In this document: piece after piece, positions 993-52,656 of the stretch | Position numbering within the stretch: the first letter of the stretch is position 1 | Layout of the letters: each line of letters opens with the position of its first letter | NCBI GenBank assembly: GCA_900549325.1 | Contig: UROI01000001.1 | Span: 34,213-98,212 of the forward strand | From: an uncultured Mycoplasmatota bacterium | Lineage (GTDB): Bacteria > Bacillota_I > Bacilli_A > RF39 > UBA660 | Direction: 5' to 3' | Length of the DNA stretch: 64,000 nt | The notes under the pieces: generated by a model | What the model saw: only the letters and a program-made list of their open reading frames with translations | The model's database searches: none | What the model was told of the DNA's origin: nothing | Made by a program: the position numbers and the translations under genes

Positions 993-3596
993 ATGGAAGA
1001 TGAAAATATTAAAAAAGAAAGCGACGATATTAATGAACTTGTTAATAGAGCAATGAATGACAATAATCAAGGTGAAAAAAATGAAGATATTGCTGTTGAA
1101 AATTCAGATATAGAAGAAACTGATAACTTTAATGGTGATTTTCATGAAAAAGATAGTAGTACTGCAAATGACATCGTTTCAGAGGTTAAAGACTCATTTA
1201 TTGACTATTCTATGAGTGTTATTACTTCAAGAGCTATTCCTGACCTTAGAGATGGCTTAAAACCTGTTCACAGGAGAATATTATGGTCTATGTATGAAGA
1301 AGGTAATACTCCCGATAAACCTCATAAAAAATCTGCAACTACTGTTGGTTACGTTATGGGACATTACCATCCTCATGGAGATAGTTCTATATATGAGGCT
1401 ATGGTTCGTTTAGCACAGGATTTTAATGAAAGATATATGTTAGTTGATGGTCATGGTAATTTTGGTAATATTGAAGGTGATGGTGCTGCAGCATATCGTT
1501 ATACTGAAGCAAGATTATCTAGAATTTCGCTTGAACTTATTAGAGATATTAATAAAAATACTGTTGATATGGATGATAATTTTGATGAAACTAGTAAAGA
1601 ACCTAGAGTATTACCAAGTAGATTTCCAAATATATTAGTAAATGGCTCAATGGGTATAGCTGTTGGTATGGCTACTAATATTCCTCCACATAATTTAGGT
1701 GAGGTAATTGATGGCTGTGTAGCATATATTGATAATCATGATATAGATACTTTAGGTCTTATGGAATACATAAAGGGGCCTGATTTTCCTACAGGTGGAA
1801 TTATACTTGGCAATTCTGGTATAAAAAAGGCCTATGAAACAGGTAGGGGATCTATTACTATTCGTAGTAGAGCGGAGATTGAAGAACATAATAATCATAA
1901 TACTATTGTTATTACTGAAGTTCCTTATGGTATAAATACTATGGAACTAAAAAATAAGGTAGCTGAACTTGTTAGAGATAAAGTTATTGATGGTATATCT
2001 GATTATCATACTGATTTAAAAGATGGTGTTAAAATCACTATTACTTTGAAAAGAGACGCTAATCCTCAGGTTGTACTTAATAATTTATATAAGCACACTA
2101 ATTTTCAAATTTCCTATGGAATTATATTTTTGATGCTTGATCAGGGTGTTCCTAAGACCTTGGGATTAAAGGATATTATTTCTAAATATATTGATCATCA
2201 AAAAGAAGTTATTATCAGACGAACTAAATTTGATTTAGATAAAGACGAGAGAAGAGTTCATATTTTGGAAGGTTATAAAATAGCTCAAGATAATATTGAT
2301 GAAGTTATCAAAATAATAAAAACTGCCGAAAGTGATATAGAAGCAAAGAAAAAGTTAATGGAACGATTTGCTTTATCTGAAATTCAAACTGATGCTATAT
2401 TAGAATTAAAATTGCGTCGTTTAACCGGAATGGAAAGAGATAAAATTGAAGCCGAACTTGCTGATTTGCTTGTTGAAATCGAAGAATTAAAGTCTATTCT
2501 TGCTTCTGAAGAAAAAGTTCTTAGTATTATTAAAAAAGAATTATTAGAAATTAAGAGTAGATATGCTGATGAAAGAAGAACACATATTGATATGACCGCT
2601 GTTGAATATATTGAAGACGAAAGCTTAATTCCTGAAGATAAAGTTGTTATTACTTTAACTAAGAAGGGATATATTAAGAGACTATCTGCTTCAACTTATA
2701 AGACACAGCATAGAGGTGGTGTTGGTATAAAAGGTATGTCTACTAATGAAGAAGACTTTGTTGAACAAATTCTTAATTGTTCTACACATGATTATGTTTT
2801 ATTCTTTACTAATATGGGTAAAGTATACAGGGTTAAAGGTTATAAAATTCCTGAGTATAGTAGACAATCAAAAGGATTACCAATTATCAATCTACTTAAC
2901 TTAGAACAAGGTGAGTATGTTACGGCTTTACTTAATGGCTCTAGTGATAGTGAAGATAAGTATTTGGTATTTGCCACTAAAAGTGGTTTAATTAAGAGAA
3001 CTGATTTGGCTGAATTCTATAATATTAGAATTAATGGTAAGAGATTTATCACTTTAAGAGATGATGATGAACTTATTTCTGTTAAGGGTACTACCGGAGA
3101 TAATGATATTTTAATGGCTTCTTCCAATGGTAGAATGGTAAGATTTAATGAAAATTCTATTAGAGTTATGGGAAGAGGTGCTTCTGGAGTTAGAGGTATT
3201 AATTTAGATGGTGGTTTTCTTGTCGGAATGGAAGTTGTTAAACCTAATGAAGATGTTCTTGTTATTAGTGAATATGGATATGGTAAAAAAACTCCTATTG
3301 ATGAATATAGAATAACAAATAGGGGTGGTAAAGGTGTTAAAACTATTAATATCACCGAAAAGAATGGTGCTATTGTTTCGTTTAAAACTGTTACAGATGA
3401 TAAGGATTTGATAATTATTACTGATACAGGTATGATTATCAGATTAGCAGTTGATAAGATTTCTAGAATGAGTAGAGTTACTCAGGGAGTTAGACTTATT
3501 AATCTTAAGGATGATACGAAAGTTAGTGGAACTGCGATTGTTGACAAAGAAAATGAAGAACAAACTTTGGAAACTAATGAAATAAAGAGTGAGTAA
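993..3596 (+). CDS. gyrA: DNA gyrase subunit A
   Basis: 867-aa ORF with the GyrA catalytic tyrosine region (AAAYRYTEARLS), the HPHGD motif and C-terminal beta-pinwheel repeats; GGAGG ribosome-binding site upstream. Confidence 0.95.
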   Translation: MEDENIKKESDDINELVNRAMNDNNQGEKNEDIAVENSDIEETDNFNGDFHEKDSSTANDIVSEVKDSFIDYSMSVITSRAIPDLRDGLKPVHRRILWSMYEEGNTPDKPHKKSATTVGYVMGHYHPHGDSSIYEAMVRLAQDFNERYMLVDGHGNFGNIEGDGAAAYRYTEARLSRISLELIRDINKNTVDMDDNFDETSKEPRVLPSRFPNILVNGSMGIAVGMATNIPPHNLGEVIDGCVAYIDNHDIDTLGLMEYIKGPDFPTGGIILGNSGIKKAYETGRGSITIRSRAEIEEHNNHNTIVITEVPYGINTMELKNKVAELVRDKVIDGISDYHTDLKDGVKITITLKRDANPQVVLNNLYKHTNFQISYGIIFLMLDQGVPKTLGLKDIISKYIDHQKEVIIRRTKFDLDKDERRVHILEGYKIAQDNIDEVIKIIKTAESDIEAKKKLMERFALSEIQTDAILELKLRRLTGMERDKIEAELADLLVEIEELKSILASEEKVLSIIKKELLEIKSRYADERRTHIDMTAVEYIEDESLIPEDKVVITLTKKGYIKRLSASTYKTQHRGGVGIKGMSTNEEDFVEQILNCSTHDYVLFFTNMGKVYRVKGYKIPEYSRQSKGLPIINLLNLEQGEYVTALLNGSSDSEDKYLVFATKSGLIKRTDLAEFYNIRINGKRFITLRDDDELISVKGTTGDNDILMASSNGRMVRFNENSIRVMGRGASGVRGINLDGGFLVGMEVVKPNEDVLVISEYGYGKKTPIDEYRITNRGGKGVKTINITEKNGAIVSFKTVTDDKDLIIITDTGMIIRLAVDKISRMSRVTQGVRLINLKDDTKVSGTAIVDKENEEQTLETNEIKSE

Positions 3597-3630
3597 TTTA
3601 AAATGCTTACTCTTTTTATTTCCCGGGAAA
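3590..3630 (+). terminator. Rho-independent terminator after gyrA
   Basis: GAGTAA / TTACTC hairpin followed by TTTTTATTT. Confidence 0.5.
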
Positions 3631-3676
3631 TAATTTTTATACTTTAAGCATACAAATGTTCGTCATTAATATATAC

Positions 3677-3705
3677 TTGTTTTTTTTGTTAAAATGTGAT
3701 ATAGT
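3677..3705 (+). promoter_or_regulatory. Sigma-A-like promoter in front of the SRP RNA candidate
   Basis: TTGTTT, then 17 bp, then TATAGT, with a TG dinucleotide at -14. Confidence 0.4.
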
Positions 3706-3711
3706 GTTGTT

Positions 3712-3792
3712 GATACAACATTAATGATGGAATCAAGTCAGGGGCGGAAGCCAGCAGCTTTAACATTTTATTAATGTGTGTATCTTTTTTTT
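3712..3792 (+). ncRNA. ffs: Small (4.5S-type) signal recognition particle RNA candidate
   Basis: Contains GUCAGGGGCGGAAGCCAGCAGC, matching the conserved SRP RNA domain IV (the E. coli 4.5S RNA has GUCAGGUCCGGAAGGAAGCAGC) including the GGAA tetraloop closed by a GC/GC stem; the 8-bp palindrome CAUUAANG occurs at both ends and could form the closing helix; ends in a T-run; has its own promoter. Confidence 0.55.
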
Positions 3793-3793
3793 A

Positions 3794-3809
3794 TGTTTCA
3801 CGTGGAACA
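3794..3809. promoter_or_regulatory. parS site 1 (TGTTTCACGTGGAACA)
   Basis: Equals the reverse complement of the B. subtilis-type parS TGTTCCACGTGAAACA; TTTTCCACA follows at 3814-3822. Confidence 0.8.
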
Positions 3810-4001
3810 TGAATTTTCCACAATTTTTTTATATTTGAATTGGACTATAGTTTTTAATTATTATATATCAAAATTGATAACGGATTTATTATATATAATA
3901 ATTAAAACTATATCGTTGATTAGTTATATAAGATTAAACAATAATGTTGTAATTAACTTAATGATATTTAATTTCTATTTTATTTTTAATTATATTATAA
4001 A

Positions 4002-4017
4002 TGTTTCACGTGAAACA
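4002..4017. promoter_or_regulatory. parS site 2 (perfect palindrome TGTTTCACGTGAAACA)
   Basis: Perfect 16-bp palindromic parS; TGAG then TTTTCCACA at 4022-4030. Confidence 0.85.
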
Positions 4018-4161
4018 TGAGTTTTCCACATGTAATCACGAAAGTAATAATTATAATATAATAATTAGATTTTTATTATAAATATTTAAAAATTAAACAT
4101 TTAAACTACATATTAATCTTAAGCTGTTTTATTTTTGTGTATTCTTTCTTTGTAAATATAA

Positions 4162-4177
4162 AGTTTCACGTGAAACG
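4162..4177. promoter_or_regulatory. parS site 3 (AGTTTCACGTGAAACG)
   Basis: 14-bp core GTTTCACGTGAAAC intact; TAAG then TTTTCCACA at 4182-4190. Confidence 0.75.
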
Positions 4178-4325
4178 TAAGTTTTCCACAATATATGTAT
4201 TAAACTTTTATATTTTCAGTACACTATCTGAAAAAAGAACATTTTCAGTGTATATTTAAAAAACTTTACTTAATTTAGCGCGTATTTAACTTAAAATGCT
4301 ACTTTATCTATTATTGAATTAACTA

Positions 4326-4341
4326 TGTTTCACGTGAAACA
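4326..4341. promoter_or_regulatory. parS site 4 (perfect TGTTTCACGTGAAACA)
   Basis: Perfect parS; TGAG then TTTTCCACA at 4346-4354. Confidence 0.85.
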
Positions 4342-4485
4342 TGAGTTTTCCACAACTAAAATCATTTTAATTATTGATATTAAATATATTTTAATTAACT
4401 GATTCAATAATGATATTAAATTTTTATAATTATATATATGATTTATTTATATTTATTAAATGTAATTATGTGATAAAAAAGTGTA

Positions 4486-4501
4486 AGTTTCACGTGAAAC
4501 T
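4486..4501. promoter_or_regulatory. parS site 5 (AGTTTCACGTGAAACT)
   Basis: Palindromic variant with intact 14-bp core; no DnaA-box-like motif follows. Confidence 0.75.
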
Positions 4502-4669
4502 TGTATATCAACATATTTTATCACTAAAATGTTGTTAATATATTAAATATATAATCAATTATAATGAATTTTTTTATTATTTAATTCAAATAAATTTATT
4601 TATACAACCATTTTTAGAAAATCATGATAAATTTTACTAAATTTTTTATCTTATACTATTAATTACAAA

Positions 4670-4685
4670 TGTTTCACGTGAAACA
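4670..4685. promoter_or_regulatory. parS site 6 (perfect TGTTTCACGTGAAACA)
   Basis: Perfect parS; TAAG then TTTTCCACA at 4690-4698. Confidence 0.85.
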
Positions 4686-4834
4686 TAAGTTTTCCACAAC
4701 ATATGTATTAAACTTTTATATTTTCAGTACACTATCTGAAAAAAGAATATTTTCTGTGTATTTTATTTTCAATTTCATTTAATTTTGCATATATTTGCTT
4801 TAAAATGGTACTTTATTTATTTTTGAATTAGCTA

Positions 4835-4850
4835 TGTTTCACGTGAAACG
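4835..4850. promoter_or_regulatory. parS site 7 (TGTTTCACGTGAAACG)
   Basis: One mismatch from consensus; lies about 90 bp upstream of the tadA start codon. Confidence 0.75.
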
Positions 4851-4937
4851 TTTTTTTACTTGTTGATGTGTATAATTAAAATAACTGGTTCTAGTTACTA
4901 TTTTTTGTTATACTTGTTGATAGAAAAGGAGTTTATA

Positions 4938-5360
4938 ATGAAAAAATATCTTGATATGGCATTTATTGAAGCAAAAAAGGCTTTTGATTTGGACGAAATT
5001 CCTGTAGGATGTGTTATTGTATACAAAAATAAGGTTATAGCCTGTGGACGCAATGAAAAAGAAAGCAAAAATTGTGCAATTAGGCATGCTGAGATGGTGG
5101 CGATTGATATAGCCTGTGGAAAACTCAATTCTTGGCGTTTGGATGAATGTGATCTTTATGTCACTTTGGAGCCCTGCATGATGTGTATGGGTGCAATTGT
5201 TGAATCTAGAATTAAAAATGTTTATTTTGGGGCAAAAAATAATGGCGAACAAATGTACGATATAAGGAGGATAAACAAGCTTGTTAACTTATATTTTCTT
5301 GATGATACAGATTGTTCAAAAATTTTATCTGATTTTTTTGCAAATAAACGAAAAAAATGA
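4938..5360 (+). CDS. tadA: tRNA-specific adenosine deaminase
   Basis: Cytidine/deoxycytidylate deaminase zinc motifs HAEMVAI and LEPCMMC; start at ATG 4938 with AAAGGAG ribosome-binding site (the ORF-track start at 4860 is upstream of the ribosome-binding site); same position relative to dnaX as B. subtilis tadA. Confidence 0.85.
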   Translation: MKKYLDMAFIEAKKAFDLDEIPVGCVIVYKNKVIACGRNEKESKNCAIRHAEMVAIDIACGKLNSWRLDECDLYVTLEPCMMCMGAIVESRIKNVYFGAKNNGEQMYDIRRINKLVNLYFLDDTDCSKILSDFFANKRKK

Positions 5361-12118: not shown

Positions 12119-15100
12119 ATGAAGTTTTTTGATAATTTATTTGATGTTAATAATAGAGATGAACAACTAGTTACTGGGTTAAATAAAGAACTTAATAGTG
12201 TTTATGTTTATGATTATTTTAATAAATATAATAATAGTATTTTACTTGTTACTAATTCTTTATACGAGGCTAATGATTTATATAATAGATTATCTAATTA
12301 TACTGATAGAGTATTATTTTTTCCTATGGATGACTTTATGACTAGTGAGGCTTCAATTATTAGCCCTGAGCTTATGATTGAAAGATTAAATACATTGAAT
12401 AAACTTGTTAATAATGATAAGTATATTGTTGTAACTAATTTAATGGGTTTACTTAGATATCTTCCTAATAAGTCTTTATATAAGAGGAAAATTATTAATT
12501 TAAATGTTAATGAAGATGTAAATAGAGAAGTGTTAATTAACAATTTAATTGACTTAGGTTATGATAGGGTACCGCTTGTTACTAAGACTGGAGAGGTGGC
12601 TATTAGAGGATATGTGATTGATATATTTCCTATGGAAACTGATAGTCCTATTAGAATAGAGTTTTGGGGAGATACTATTGATAGTATTAAATATTTTGAT
12701 TTGGATAGTCAGATTTCTAATGAGAGTATTAATACTATTTCTATATATCCTTTTACGGAATTTTTACTTGATAATAGTTTAAATGTTGACAGTAAAATGT
12801 GTAAGCAAAAATATTTATCACATTATTCTAAAGATATTCAAGGTATATGGAATTATTTAGATAATTGTACTCTTATATATTATGATTATAACCAAGTTAT
12901 GTCAGCTTATAGATTACTTAGAGAGAGTATTATTAATTATGATAAAGAAATAAAAGATTCTATTAAAACTGATTATATGTTTGATATTTCTGATGTTAAA
13001 TATAATAATATTATTTATATGTTAGAGTTTGATAATATTCTTGATTTGAATATTAAATGTAAAAATAATTATTTATCTAATAGTGTTGATAATTATCATG
13101 GTGATTTTGAAAAAATTAAAACAAGTCTTTTTAAATATATTAGTGGTGGTAAGACGGTTATTATGTGTATTGATAATAAAGACGTTGCTAAGAGAGTTAT
13201 CACTTATTTAGATATTATGGATGATGTTGTATTAACTAGAGAAAATGAAATTATTAAAAATAAGATTAATATTATTAATAAATATATTATAAGTGGATTT
13301 ATATATGATAATTATGTTGTTATTTCTTCTAATGATTTATTTGGTAAAATAGAAGAAAAGAAAAAAGTTAAAAATAAATATAAAGTTGGTACTAAGATTA
13401 GTAATATTAATAACTTAGAGAAGGGTGATTATATTGTTCATATTGATCATGGTATAGGACAATATGTTGAACTATGTACTTTGTCTAAGAATGGCTTGAA
13501 AAAGGATTATATTAAACTTTTATATGCTGATGGTGATGTTTTATATTTACCAGTAGAAAAGATTGATAAAATTACTAAGTTTACTGGTAGAGAAGGGGCT
13601 ATTGTAAGACTTGATAAGTTGGGTACTGATTCTTGGAATAAGAAGAAGGCTAGAGTTAGAAGTAAACTGGAAAATATTGCGGGTGATTTGATTAGAGTGT
13701 CTGCTGAAAGAGAAAATTCTAAAGGTTTTGCTTTTAGTCCTGATGATGAAGAACAAATATTATTTGAAAGTAAATTTAAATATACTGCTACTGCTGATCA
13801 GGAGAGGGCTATAGGTATTATTAAGCATGAAATGGAAAAGGATAAACCTATGGATATGCTCTTATGTGGTGATGTTGGATATGGTAAAACGGAGGTGGCT
13901 TTTAGGGCAATATTTAAGGCTGTTAATGATGGTAAACAAGTTGCTTATTTATGTCCTACTACCATTCTTTCTAGTCAGCAATATAATTCTGCACTAGATA
14001 GATTTGCTGATTTTCCAATTAATATTGCATTACTTAATAGGTTTACTTCTGTTAAAGAGCAAAATATTATTTTTAATAATTTAAAAGAAGGTAAAATTGA
14101 TATTTTATTTGGTACTCATAAACTTCTTAATGATAAAGTGGATTTTAAAGATTTAGGATTACTTATTATTGATGAAGAACAAAGATTTGGTGTTGTACAT
14201 AAAGAAAAAGTTAAGAAATATAAGAGTAGTATTGATGTTTTAACTCTTAGTGCAACTCCTATTCCTAGAACTCTTCAAATGTCTATGTCTGGTATTAGGG
14301 GACTTGCACTTATTGAGACTCCTCCTGAAAAGCGTAGACCAATACAGACTTATGTAATGCCTGAGAGTGTAAATATTATTAAAGATGCTATTTATAAAGA
14401 ATTATCTAGAAATGGTCAAGTATTTATGCTTTATAATAGTGTTGAAAAAATAGATAATAAACTTGAAGAGATACATAAATTGGTACCAGAAGCTAATATT
14501 AGGTACGCTCATGGTAGAATGACTAAGGTTGAACTTGAGAATATTATGATTGACTTTACTAATCATAAGTTTGATATATTACTTTGTACGACAATTATTG
14601 AGACTGGTATTGATATTCCTAATGTTAATACTTTGATTGTTTTGGATGCTGATAGATTTGGTTTATCTCAGTTATATCAAATTAGAGGTAGAATTGGTCG
14701 TAGTGATAGAATTGGTTATGCTTATCTTATGTATAATGGCAGAAAAGAACTTAATGATTTGGCAGTTAAAAGACTTAATACTATAAAAGAGTTTACTGAA
14801 CTTGGTAGTGGCTTTAAGATAGCTATGAGGGATTTATCTATTAGAGGAGCTGGAGATATACTTGGTAGTGAACAGTCTGGTTTTATTGATAGTATAGGTA
14901 TTGATTTGTATTTGAAGATGTTAAAAGAAGAGGTTGATAAACTCAAGGGTATTAAGATAGTAGAAGAAAAAGAGGAAAGTTCTAAACCTCTTATTGAAGT
15001 TGAAACGCATATTTCTAATGAATATGCTCCTGATGATGAAATTAAACTTGAGGTTCATAAATTAATTAATAATATTAATTCTGAGGAAGATATTGATAAT

Positions 15101-16308: not shown

Positions 16309-16317
16309 ACTTTGTGT

Positions 16318-16530
16318 AAAGCAAAGAAGGAAAGAGTAATAGTAATATTTATAGAGAGTCTATGTTTGGTGGAAATAGATAAGAAAAGCTATTATAAATG
16401 GTTCCAGAGCAGTTATATCTAATAGGTGTAAACGGTTGTTACGTTATAACTTAATGAGTGTATATACTATAAAATAAGGTGGTACCGCGGAATATTTTTC
16501 GTCCTTTGGCCAGCCTTATTTTTTATTTTA
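16318..16530 (+). promoter_or_regulatory. T-box riboswitch leader upstream of dut-metG
   Basis: Canonical T-box sequence AAATAAGGTGGTACCGCGG at 16472-16490 (family consensus AAnnAGGGTGGNACCGCG); upstream AGAGAG stem I element; terminator-like structure plus T-run at 16500-16530. Confidence 0.6.
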
Positions 16531-52582: not shown

Positions 52583-52656
52583 GCAGATGTAGTTTAATGG
52601 TAGAACCTCAGCCTTCCAAGCTGACTGCGTGAGTTCGATTCTCATCATCTGCTCCA
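52583..52656 (+). tRNA. tRNA-Gly (anticodon UCC)
   Basis: 74-nt cloverleaf: acceptor stem GCAGATG/CATCTGC, D-arm, anticodon stem TCAGC/GCTGA with loop CTTCCAA (anticodon TCC), T-arm GTGAG TTCGATT CTCAT, encoded CCA. Confidence 0.85.

What the first reader, a model, noticed from the sequence alone, without database searches (positions are those of the whole stretch)
3814..4698. DnaA-box-like 9-mer (TTTTCCACA) fused at a fixed 4-nt offset to five of the seven parS sites
In copies 1, 2, 3, 4 and 6 the parS is followed by (T/A)(G/A)A(G/A/T) and then TTTTCCACA. That 9-mer differs from the DnaA-box consensus TTATCCACA at one position, and this change is a commonly tolerated variant. The composite 29-bp unit TGTTTCACGTGAAACATGAGTTTTCCACA is conserved while the flanks are not. 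Copies 5 and 7 keep parS but have lost the 9-mer. A fixed juxtaposition of a ParB site and a DnaA site is not a described module. It could be a DnaA-box cluster or titration locus coupled to ParB/Soj control of initiation, or a site where ParB and DnaA compete or cooperate.
Basis: partly seen in the sequence, partly recalled or inferred. Interest (0 to 1): 0.7.

Follow-up and report, generated by a model that had tools for sequence, protein, structure and literature searches.

The report
DnaA boxes fused to centromere sites
In an uncultured gut bacterium, the chromosome's centromere is an array of seven ParB-binding sites, and six of them sit 3-4 bp from a binding site for the replication initiator DnaA, which suggests a hard-wired link between starting replication and segregating the chromosome.

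Summary
The gyrA-tadA spacer holds the only seven parS sites in the 64-kb window. Five are followed after 4 nt by TTTTCCACA.

Both 9-mers also occur in this genome's own oriC box clusters, about 10 kb upstream. Ten loci chosen without reference to the motif, from seven related lineages, hold 65 parS. Of these, 51 (78%) carry a 9-mer matching TTATCCACA at 7 or more of 9 positions, 2-4 nt away and always on the tadA side. Control windows in the same spacers reach that score 1-3% of the time. Only positions 1, 3 and 6 of the box vary, while the surrounding spacer is near mutational saturation. The 9-mer is therefore under selection and is best read as a DnaA box.

The "fixed 4-nt offset" reflects shared descent of one unit type: other box types sit at 2, 3 or 5 nt. 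Three other relatives lack the box.

The idea is not wholly undescribed. DnaA binds the Caulobacter centromere, and Deinococcus repeats bind both DnaA and ParB. I call it a new variant of a known kind. Its function (DnaA gating ParB loading, or ParB-linked DnaA titration) is inferred, not shown.

The parts
3618..3631 (.). ATTTCCCGGGAAAT palindrome, matching the core of the Noc-binding site (NBS). It lies just after the gyrA terminator hairpin (3584-3615).
   Evidence: Only match in 64 kb. It is kept at this place in nearly all relatives, including distant ones. parS and NBS half-sites differ at two positions (PMC7383237).
3702..3799 (+). SRP RNA gene (ffs). Its 3' T-run abuts parS copy 1.
   Evidence: Rfam RF00169, 58 bits. 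Highly conserved in the spacer alignment.
3794..3822 (+). Composite 1: parS TGTTTCACGTGGAACA + TGAA + TTTTCCACA.
   Evidence: It can also form a GTGGAA/TTCCAC hairpin followed by a T-run.
4002..4030 (+). Composite 2: consensus parS + TGAG + TTTTCCACA.
   Evidence: The corresponding unit in L249 has the same box and in L123 has TTATCAACA.
4162..4190 (+). Composite 3: AGTTTCACGTGAAACG + TAAG + TTTTCCACA.
   Evidence: The box is kept in sister strain L252, although the parS there has 3 mismatches.
4326..4354 (+). Composite 4: consensus parS + TGAG + TTTTCCACA.
4486..4513 (+). Composite 5: AGTTTCACGTGAAACT + TGT + ATATCAACA, a weaker box variant with 2 mismatches to TTATCCACA.
   Evidence: The same 9-mer occurs in tandem in the dnaA-dnaN spacer (L001 4844-4861). 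The corresponding 9-mer in L252 has decayed to ATATTAACA.
4670..4698 (+). Composite 6: consensus parS + TAAG + TTTTCCACA, a recent duplicate of composite 3.
   Evidence: 97 nt at 94% identity to 4160-4256.
4835..4850 (.). parS copy 7, with no box in direct orientation. An inverted TTATACACA lies at 4867-4875 (- strand).
   Evidence: The last parS before tadA lacks a box in every relative. L249 and L256 retain remnants (TGAG + T-rich).
4160..4850 (+). Segmental duplication: 4160-4341 copied to 4668-4850 (or the reverse). Its right-hand end is at parS 4/7; both copies start just before parS 3/6.
   Evidence: Repeat families D5 (94%) and D2 (82%).
4938..5360 (+). tadA, the first gene of the tadA-dnaX-ybaB-recR block and the right border of the array.
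   Evidence: Pfam families on the called genes of L001; ORF list.

Best explanation
The 1.34-kb gyrA-tadA spacer is this bacterium's origin-proximal centromere: an array of seven ParB loading sites (parS) about 9.4-10.5 kb to the right of the dnaA-flanking oriC.

Six of the seven parS carry a 9-mer of the same types as the organism's own oriC DnaA boxes. It lies on the tadA side, 3-4 bp from the 16-mer. These 9-mers are functional DnaA boxes, so one DnaA molecule is placed directly beside each ParB nucleation site.

The spacing drifts between 0 and 5 bp among relatives while the close adjacency persists. The most likely interaction is therefore steric rather than a face-specific contact. Box-bound DnaA would hinder ParB nucleation, or block ParB-CTP clamps from sliding out on one side; conversely, ParB clamps could evict DnaA. 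Either way, assembly of the partition complex would be tied to DnaA occupancy, as when DnaA bound at the Caulobacter centromere controls the onset of segregation.

The array evolves by unequal crossing-over or conversion between units. That explains why one unit type (TGAG+TTTTCCACA, offset 4) dominates in this genome.

Shown: the sites, their non-random association, their conservation, and their identity with the oriC boxes. Inferred: binding by DnaA and ParB, and the gating mechanism.
For: Sites and chance.
- Seven parS against 0 expected, and 5 TTTTCCACA at a fixed offset against 0.9 expected in the whole window.

Link to oriC.
- TTTTCCACA occurs in all three oriC-region box clusters of the same contig: upstream of dnaA, between dnaA and dnaN, and downstream of dnaN. 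ATATCCACA and ATATCAACA occur there too.
- In relatives whose parS-adjacent box is TTATCAACA, that 9-mer is also an oriC box.

Loci anchored on GyrA or TadA, so chosen without reference to the motif.
- 65 parS in 10 loci from 7 lineages: 51 have a box matching 7/9 or better at offset 2-4 on one side, and none on the other side. Control windows of the same spacers reach 7/9 in 1.3-2.7% of cases.
- In 36 unique units, box positions 4, 5, 7, 8 and 9 are invariant and position 2 is T in 35 of 36. Only positions 1, 3 and 6 vary. These units were selected for 7/9 or better, so part of this is by construction.
- Other spacer sites differ by 35-45% between these species, and flanks within the window are at background identity.
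- The sister strain keeps all five TTTTCCACA at 5.6% spacer divergence.

Wider clade.
- Members with GyrA 61-72% identical show parS+box arrays in the same gyrA-tadA(-dnaX) spacer.

Precedent.
- DnaA at the Caulobacter centromere (PMC6399470; PMC11151105).
Against: - No binding data exist, and the organism is uncultured.
- Three relatives (L125, L127, L128) keep the parS array with no adjacent box, so the box is dispensable.
- The side of parS that carries the box, relative to gyrA/oriC, is not universal in the wider clade. L024, L057 and L120 are opposite, and L014 has the box inverted. This argues against a direction-specific mechanism.
- Strain-level data alone do not prove constraint on the box: 1/53 differences against 53/950 is not significant.
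- Units within a genome are not independent, because of duplication.
- In an unbiased sample of 379 parS flanks from metagenomes, only 2 had a box within 7 nt, both at one locus. The arrangement is rare overall.
Confidence: 0.55

Rival explanations
1. DnaA sink. The boxes are real DnaA boxes, but the array works as an origin-proximal titration or inactivation locus, like E. coli datA or the B. subtilis DnaA-box clusters. Adjacency to parS is only a by-product of the repeat-unit structure, or serves to gather the boxes in three dimensions inside the ParB condensate.
For: - Five to six boxes lie in 885 bp, about 10 kb from oriC.
- WTWTCCACA is otherwise concentrated in the oriC spacers.
- From my knowledge of Okumura 2012, box clusters outside oriC restrain initiation in B. 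subtilis.
Against: - The boxes are single and 160-340 bp apart, which is too sparse for the cooperative DnaA oligomers typical of datA or DnaA-box clusters.
- A sink needs no base-pair-level adjacency to parS, yet adjacency of 0-5 bp is what persists across lineages while everything else changes.
Confidence: 0.2
2. Passenger sequence. The 9-mer has no function. It was part of one ancestral repeat unit and is repeated only because units are copied by unequal crossing-over or conversion between parS sites.
For: - Copies 3/6 and 4/7 are a recent 182-bp duplication.
- L250 against L249 and L260 against L256 differ by whole units.
- Each genome is dominated by one or two unit types, and the offset is tied to unit type.
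- The linker differs more than the rest of the spacer between strains (6/23 against 53/950), which suggests exchange between units.
Against: - Flanks of independent units are at background identity while the 9-mer is identical.
- TGAG+TTTTCCACA is identical in three species whose other spacer sites differ by 35-45%.
- Across species the box changes only at positions 1, 3 and 6, and it always matches an oriC box type of the clade.
- The box is never found on the other side of the palindrome.
Confidence: 0.08
3. Auxiliary ParB (or Noc) half-site. TTTTCCAC resembles the parS arm TGTTTCAC (6 of 8 positions) and would bind a third ParB-family monomer, as Pseudomonas ParB binds half-parS heptamers.
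For: - Sequence resemblance in the window's variant.
- Half-parS binding is documented in P. aeruginosa (PMC5961200 and PMC10419367, listed).
- An NBS-like site shows that a second ParB-family protein probably acts in this spacer.
Against: - The variants in relatives move away from a parS arm but stay within 1-2 mismatches of TTATCCACA (ATATCCACA, TTATCAACA; canonical TTATCCACA in L011, L107, L024).
- The variable positions are 1, 3 and 6 of the DnaA box, not those that distinguish parS from NBS.
Confidence: 0.07
4. Transcriptional or structural element. The 9-mer pairs with the right arm of parS to form a hairpin or terminator, or DnaA bound there regulates the tadA-dnaX operon.
For: - Copy 1 can form GTGGAA/TTCCAC plus a T-run directly after the SRP RNA gene.
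- The array lies upstream of tadA-dnaX.
Against: - Folding of seven composites pairs only the parS palindrome and leaves the 9-mer unpaired.
- Only copy 1 has the T-run.
- The parS nearest the tadA promoter is the one that lacks a box in every species.
- Boxes lie up to 1.1 kb upstream of tadA.
Confidence: 0.04
5. Second or extended replication origin. The AT-rich array with DnaA boxes and parS-like repeats is itself an origin, as proposed for Deinococcus cisII/cisMP.
For: - An AT-rich spacer (about 22-24% G+C) holds 5-6 DnaA boxes.
- Precedent in PMC7671480.
Against: - A canonical bipartite oriC with tightly clustered boxes flanks dnaA, 10 kb away.
- GC skew is positive on both sides of the array, with no switch.
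- The boxes are widely spaced and all point in one direction.
Confidence: 0.03

Closest known systems
DnaA boxes within the Caulobacter crescentus parS centromere (Mera, Kalogeraki and Shapiro 2014; reviewed in PMC6399470)
   Same: The replication initiator has binding sites inside the ParB centromere region close to the origin. DnaA bound there affects the onset of segregation.
   Different: - Here the box is fused at 2-5 bp to each of many parS sites in a tandem array.
- The organism is a low-GC member of the Bacilli.
- The arrangement is kept across at least 7 lineages.
- Binding and phenotype are untested.
- I could not read the Caulobacter paper itself, so the geometry of its boxes relative to parS was not compared.
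Deinococcus radiodurans cisII/cisMP repeats (PMC7671480)
   Same: Arrays of direct repeats in which putative DnaA boxes overlap parS-like iterons. They bind both DnaA and the cognate ParB in vitro.
   Different: - Those are on secondary replicons and confer origin function.
- Their boxes are non-canonical and their iterons are not the universal parS.
- Here the universal parS and oriC-type boxes lie on the main chromosome, away from oriC.
DnaA-box clusters outside oriC (E. coli datA; the six B. subtilis clusters)
   Same: A handful of DnaA boxes within 1 kb or less, outside oriC, with a possible role in buffering DnaA.
   Different: - The known clusters have closely spaced boxes and no parS (from my own knowledge, not tested here).
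- Here each box is solitary and tied to a parS.
Soj/Spo0J (ParA/ParB) control of DnaA in B. subtilis, and Noc control of initiation in S. aureus (PMC5540599)
   Same: ParB-family systems regulate DnaA-dependent initiation in Bacilli. The spacer also carries conserved NBS-like sites.
   Different: - Those links act through protein-protein contacts (Soj-DnaA) or unknown routes, not through juxtaposed DNA sites.
- In B. subtilis, regulation of initiation by ParA is reported to be independent of where parS lies (title of PMC7614844).
Vibrio cholerae chromosome 2 rctA/parS2 (PMC3688505; PMC6399470)
   Same: A centromere site overlaps a binding site of the replicon's initiator, with competition between ParB2 and the initiator.
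   Different: The initiator there is RctB, not DnaA. It is one site, not an array, and the replicon is plasmid-derived.

Membership tests
parS (chromosomal ParB centromere site) | 16-bp palindrome tGTTTCACGTGAAACa | tested here: met
   Seven sites with 0-2 mismatches, 0 expected.
parS (chromosomal ParB centromere site) | Clustered near the replication origin | tested here: met
   The array lies 9.4-10.5 kb from the box cluster upstream of dnaA on the same contig. GC skew is positive throughout.
parS (chromosomal ParB centromere site) | A ParB (and ParA) gene in the genome, and ParB binding | not testable with these tools
   No ParB signature in the 64-kb window. The rest of the genome could not be fetched.
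DnaA box | 9-mer fitting TT(A/T)TNCACA, or within 1 mismatch of TTATCCACA | tested here: met
   TTTTCCACA five times. Copy 5's ATATCAACA has 2 mismatches, so the test is not met for that copy.
DnaA box | Same sequence types used in the organism's own oriC, and a dnaA gene present | tested here: met
   TTTTCCACA three times, plus ATATCCACA and ATATCAACA, in the spacers flanking dnaA and dnaN. dnaA is at L001 3412-4773. TTATCAACA is the oriC box of relatives.
DnaA box | Conserved beyond neutral expectation | tested here: met
   78% of 65 parS in 7 lineages have the box against 1-3% of controls. Core positions are invariant while the spacer is 35-45% diverged. The strain-level test alone is not significant.
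DnaA box | Bound by DnaA | not testable with these tools
   Needs EMSA, footprinting or ChIP.
DnaA-box cluster / datA-like titration locus | Several boxes within about 1 kb outside oriC | tested here: met
   Five to six boxes in 885 bp.
DnaA-box cluster / datA-like titration locus | Closely spaced boxes that allow cooperative DnaA assembly | tested here: not met
   Box-to-box spacing is 160-344 bp, with one box per unit.
Replication origin (oriC) | Dense box cluster next to dnaA with a switch of GC skew | tested here: not met
   The canonical clusters are at dnaA. There is no skew switch at the array.
half-parS ParB sites (P. aeruginosa type) | Heptamer GTTCCAC or GTTTCAC | tested here: not met
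   The window's TTTCCAC matches 6 of 7. The variants in relatives match 4-5 of 7 but stay DnaA-box-like.
Caulobacter-type DnaA-bound centromere | DnaA boxes inside the parS region | tested here: met
   By sequence only.
Caulobacter-type DnaA-bound centromere | DnaA binding at parS controls segregation | not testable with these tools
   Needs genetics and imaging.

The most novel reading that the evidence does not exclude
The parS-DnaA-box composite is a modular device that has arisen or been kept in several phyla. It forms whole arrays in an order-level clade of uncultured gut Bacilli. It occurs as four dispersed copies of parS+TA+TTTTCCACAG in a MAG labelled Terriglobus (its record title), and as directly abutting composites in Alphaproteobacteria. 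In this reading, initiator occupancy directly gates where, when or in which direction ParB-CTP clamps load and slide. That would be a DNA-encoded switch licensing segregation from replication status, and it has not been described mechanistically.
Probability: 0.2. Interest if true: 0.8.

Novelty: new variant of a known kind. Interest (0 to 1): 0.6.

Why it matters
How bacteria couple initiation of replication to chromosome segregation is still open. The known links are protein-protein (Soj-DnaA) or single loci (Caulobacter parS, Vibrio rctA).

Here the coupling appears to be written into the DNA as a compact, repeated 28-29-bp unit. That unit can be synthesised and tested directly with purified DnaA and ParB: binding, competition, and roadblocking of CTP-dependent ParB sliding. 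Natural variants in spacing (0-5 bp) and in box type come ready-made from relatives.

The result also locates the centromere of a large, uncultured clade of gut Bacilli in the gyrA-tadA spacer. It shows that this spacer gathers three kinds of sites: parS, Noc-type palindromes and DnaA boxes.

Tried and rejected
- Hairpin or terminator reading. RNA folds of seven composites pair only the parS palindrome. Only copy 1 has an alternative hairpin with a T-run. Rejected as a general explanation.
- Known RNA families. None in the array at gathering thresholds; only SRP RNA at its left edge.
- ParB, ParA or Noc genes. A motif search of the six-frame translation of the window found nothing. The part of the contig upstream of L001 could not be fetched, because look-ups are restricted to window proteins or search hits.
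- L123 against L124 'indel polymorphism'. I first noted this as array turnover and then withdrew it: L123 contains a run of N (a scaffold gap) in the array.
- First de-duplication of the offset histogram. Collapsing identical composite strings penalises short gaps, so I replaced it with one count per locus and gap.
Frequencies from it are therefore not estimates of prevalence. It was also specific to one box orientation.
- The plain-parS metagenome scan shows that the composite is rare among parS sites in general: 2 of 379 flanks at 7 nt or less, both at one locus. The idea that it is a universal feature of parS is rejected.
- The Mera 2014 paper (PMC4234595) is not held in the library, so the exact Caulobacter geometry was not compared.
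- Promoter scan of the array: 22 promoter-like sites against 17.4 +/- 4.6 in shuffles, which is uninformative.
Full report
**1. What is there**

Gene order around the finding is gyrB (1-981), gyrA (993-3596), a terminator-like hairpin (3584-3615), an ATTTCCCGGGAAAT palindrome (3618-3631), the SRP RNA gene (3702-3799), a 1.1-kb AT-rich array, and then tadA (4938-5360), dnaX, ybaB and recR.

The array holds the only seven parS sites of the 64-kb window. They have 0-2 mismatches to TGTTTCACGTGAAACA, and none are expected by chance. They start at 3794, 4002, 4162, 4326, 4486, 4670 and 4835, giving spacings of 208, 160, 164, 160, 184 and 165 bp.

TTTTCCACA occurs six times in the window against 0.9 expected. 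Five copies lie exactly 4 nt after a parS, all on the + strand.

I add three corrections:
- Copy 5 is followed after 3 nt by ATATCAACA (4505-4513).
- Copies 3 and 6 are recent duplicates (97 nt at 94% identity). They belong to a roughly 182-bp duplication, 4160-4341 -> 4668-4850, whose right-hand end is at parS 4/7.
- Independent assemblies carry the same units, so the array is not an assembly artefact.

**2. Is the 9-mer a DnaA box?**

The window starts inside gyrB. I fetched the same contig (L001, GCA_902477185.1), which extends 9 kb upstream to dnaA and dnaN. Three spacers there hold clusters of boxes: upstream of dnaA, between dnaA and dnaN, and downstream of dnaN.
- TTTTCCACA occurs once in each cluster.
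- In two clusters it is paired head-to-head with ATATCCACA, and downstream of dnaN with TTATTCACA.
- ATATCAACA occurs twice in tandem in the dnaA-dnaN spacer.

So both 9-mers found next to parS are box types of this organism's own origin. GC skew is positive from dnaA through the array with no switch, so the array is not itself the origin.

**3. Relatives chosen without reference to the motif**

I used GyrA and TadA homologues to fetch the same spacer from relatives. All have a 1.1-1.3-kb gyrA-tadA spacer with the SRP RNA gene and a parS array.

| Lineage | Loci | Boxes next to parS |
|---|---|---|
| Window species | L001, L002 | TTTTCCACA at offset 4 (five times); ATATCAACA at 3 |
| Sister strain | L252, L254, L255 | All five TTTTCCACA kept, plus a TGT+ATATCCACA unit; spacer 5.6% diverged |
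| — | L249, L250 | TTTTCCACA at 4 and ATATCCACA at 2-3 |
| — | L256, L258-L260 | 7 of 8 parS: TTTTCCACA at 4 alternating with ATATCCACA or ATGTCCACA at 2-3 |
| — | L123, L124 | TTATCAACA at 3 |
| — | L261 | TTATCAACA at 3 |
| — | L251 | ATATCCACA at 5 |
| Three further lineages | L125/L126, L127, L128 | Four parS each, no adjacent box |

TTATCAACA is the only box type within 1 mismatch of TTATCCACA in the oriC spacers of L125, L127 and L128, and it also occurs in the oriC of L123. It is therefore a genuine box variant of this clade.

Over 65 parS in 10 loci:
- 51 (78%) have a 9-mer matching TTATCCACA at 7 or more of 9 positions, at offset 2-4 on the tadA side.
- None has one on the other side.
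- Control windows in the same spacers reach 7/9 in 1.3-2.7% of cases and 8/9 in 0-0.5%.

In 36 unique units, box positions 4, 5, 7, 8 and 9 never vary, position 2 is T in 35 of 36, and only positions 1, 3 and 6 vary. Because the units were selected for 7/9 or better, part of this pattern is by construction.

Other spacer sites differ by 35-45% between these species. Flanks of independent units in the window are at background identity: 30-62% against 38 +/- 8%. The unit TGAG+TTTTCCACA is identical in three species at that divergence. I take this as purifying selection on the 9-mer. The strain-level comparison alone is not significant (1/53 against 53/950).

**4. The 'fixed 4-nt offset'**

The offset is tied to the unit type: TTTTCCACA is always at 4, TTATCAACA at 3, and ATATCCACA at 2, 3 or 5. 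Whole units are gained and lost: the duplication in the window, L250 against L249, and L260 against L256.

The linker differs more between sister strains than the rest of the spacer (6/23 against 53/950). This suggests exchange between units.

So the fixed offset in this genome is shared descent of one unit family. What is maintained is close adjacency, not an exact distance. The first base of the linker (T in 35 of 36 units) mirrors an invariant A before parS, which extends the palindrome to 18 bp.

**5. Wider distribution**

I scanned one genome per species for parS followed within 24 nt by TTWTCCACA. Counting one per locus and gap, offsets of 0-5 nt from the 16-mer are over-represented: 53 against 35 expected, p = 4e-4. 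The mode is direct abutment.

Eleven genomes among the hits (12 loci: L005, L009, L010, L011, L014, L024, L055, L057, L067/L120, L104, L107) are from low-GC MAGs labelled Tenericutes, Mollicutes, Bacilli or Candidatus Coprovivens (class Bacilli). tblastn shows that every one is the gyrA-tadA(-dnaX) spacer of the same broad clade, with GyrA 61-72% identical to the window. Most parS in those arrays have box-like neighbours, including sites that did not match the search pattern.

The side of parS that carries the box is not universal. It is opposite in L024, L057 and L120, and the box is inverted in L014.

Outside the clade, a 60%-GC MAG labelled Terriglobus has four dispersed copies of parS+TA+TTTTCCACAG with unrelated flanks. 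Several Alphaproteobacteria have parS directly followed by TTATCCACA.

An unbiased sample of 379 parS flanks from metagenomes contains only two boxes within 7 nt, both at one locus. Within 60 nt there are four in the same orientation and none inverted. The composite is therefore rare among parS sites in general, but systematic in some lineages.

**6. Rivals**
- Hairpin or terminator: rejected by folding.
- Half-parS site for ParB: the window's variant resembles a parS arm, but the variants in relatives do not, while all stay DnaA-box-like.
- Second origin: no skew switch, sparse boxes, and a canonical oriC at dnaA.
- Promoter control of tadA: the parS nearest tadA is the one that never has a box.
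- Pure passenger: contradicted by conservation across species (sections 3 and 4).
- DnaA sink: not excluded, but it does not explain adjacency at the level of base pairs.

**7. Mechanism**

Shown:
- an origin-proximal parS array;
- oriC-type DnaA boxes 0-5 bp from most parS;
- one-sided placement within each array;
- conservation of the box core.

Inferred:
- DnaA and ParB bind side by side.
- Because the distance drifts over half a helical turn, a steric relation is more likely than a docking contact. This could be competition for loading, or a one-sided roadblock for ParB-CTP clamps.
- This would tie assembly of the partition complex to DnaA occupancy.

This works like the DnaA-bound Caulobacter centromere (PMC6399470; PMC11151105). 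It recalls the Deinococcus repeats that bind both DnaA and ParB (PMC7671480). I put 0.7 on 'functional DnaA boxes' and about 0.55 on the coupled-site explanation as a whole.

**8. Novelty and verdict**

DnaA at a centromere and DnaA-box clusters are both known. A tandem array in which nearly every universal parS is fused to an oriC-type DnaA box, kept across at least seven lineages of an uncultured clade of Bacilli and recurring elsewhere, is to my knowledge and searches not described.

I rate it a new variant of a known kind, with interest 0.6.

Noticed in passing
window 3618-3631; also L001 8026, L249 4257, L123 12690, L251 3789/3896, L128 12821, L011 6998/7337, L107 6336/6767/7076, L120 7167-7460: The palindrome ATTTCCCGGGAAAT (core of the Noc-binding site) is kept in the gyrA-tadA spacer of nearly every member of the clade. 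It is interleaved with parS in some arrays and occurs six times at 58-60-bp spacing in L120. A second conserved copy lies at the 3' end of recF. The spacer thus gathers parS, NBS-like and DnaA-box sites. Noc is known to restrain DnaA-dependent initiation in S. aureus (PMC5540599).
   Followed up: partly
window 3802-3821: In copy 1 the right arm of parS (GTGGAA) and the box (TTCCAC) form a 6-bp hairpin followed by AATTTTTTTA, directly after the SRP RNA gene. It may add to termination of ffs. Only copy 1 has the T-run.
   Followed up: partly
L001 3181-3211, 4789-4811, 6074-6096: The oriC-region spacers each contain the same head-to-head pair: (A/T)TAT(C/T)CACA, then 4-5 nt, then TGTGGAAAA. In oriC, TTTTCCACA is always the right-hand partner of an inverted pair.
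   Followed up: no
L125, L127, L128 (oriC spacers and gyrA-tadA spacer): Relatives that lack the parS-adjacent box use only TTATCAACA among oriC 9-mers within 1 mismatch of TTATCCACA, and mostly the parS variant TGTTCCACGTGGAACA. Box type and parS type seem to shift together across the clade.
   Followed up: partly
window 4835-4937; L249 5402, L256 2392: The last parS before tadA never has a box. L249 and L256 keep a remnant (TGAG + T-rich). A conserved TTTTTTGTTATACTTGTTGATAG (an extended -10-like TGTTATACT) lies just upstream of tadA, so a box there may clash with the tadA promoter.
   Followed up: no
L001 12790-13945 against L252 1265-2500: Between sister strains the 2-4-nt linker between parS and box differs at 6 of 23 positions, against 53 of 950 for the rest of the spacer and 1 of 53 for the boxes. 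This may be a sign of conversion between units.
   Followed up: partly
L055 2086-2917: In this member of the clade, parS sites come in pairs 62-63 bp apart with a TGTGGA(A/T)AA box midway, about 21 nt from each. This is a different way of mixing DnaA boxes with parS.
   Followed up: no
L033 3129, L044 415, L052 5049, L053 6973: A MAG labelled Terriglobus (60% G+C) has four dispersed copies of parS+TA+TTTTCCACAG. The flanks are otherwise unrelated, but a motif GAAAACACGACAG (or its complement) recurs 10-45 nt away. In three of the four loci (L033, L052, L053) the site lies within a stop-free stretch of 200 aa or more; in L044 the longest is 154 aa.
   Followed up: partly
L001 1388-3148 and 6341-6802 (and the same positions in L123, L125, L127, L128): A DUF87 (HerA/FtsK-like) ATPase gene lies directly upstream of dnaA, and a ComK-family gene lies between dnaN and recF. 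Both are conserved across the clade.
   Followed up: no
L123 about 13290-13390: L123 has a run of N (a scaffold gap) inside the array. Repeat arrays like this are prone to assembly breaks, so unit counts in MAGs should be treated with care.
   Followed up: yes
window 16315-16509 and 52583-52656: A T-box leader (Rfam, 105 bits) and a single tRNA-Gly(TCC) gene. Both are unrelated to the finding.
   Followed up: no
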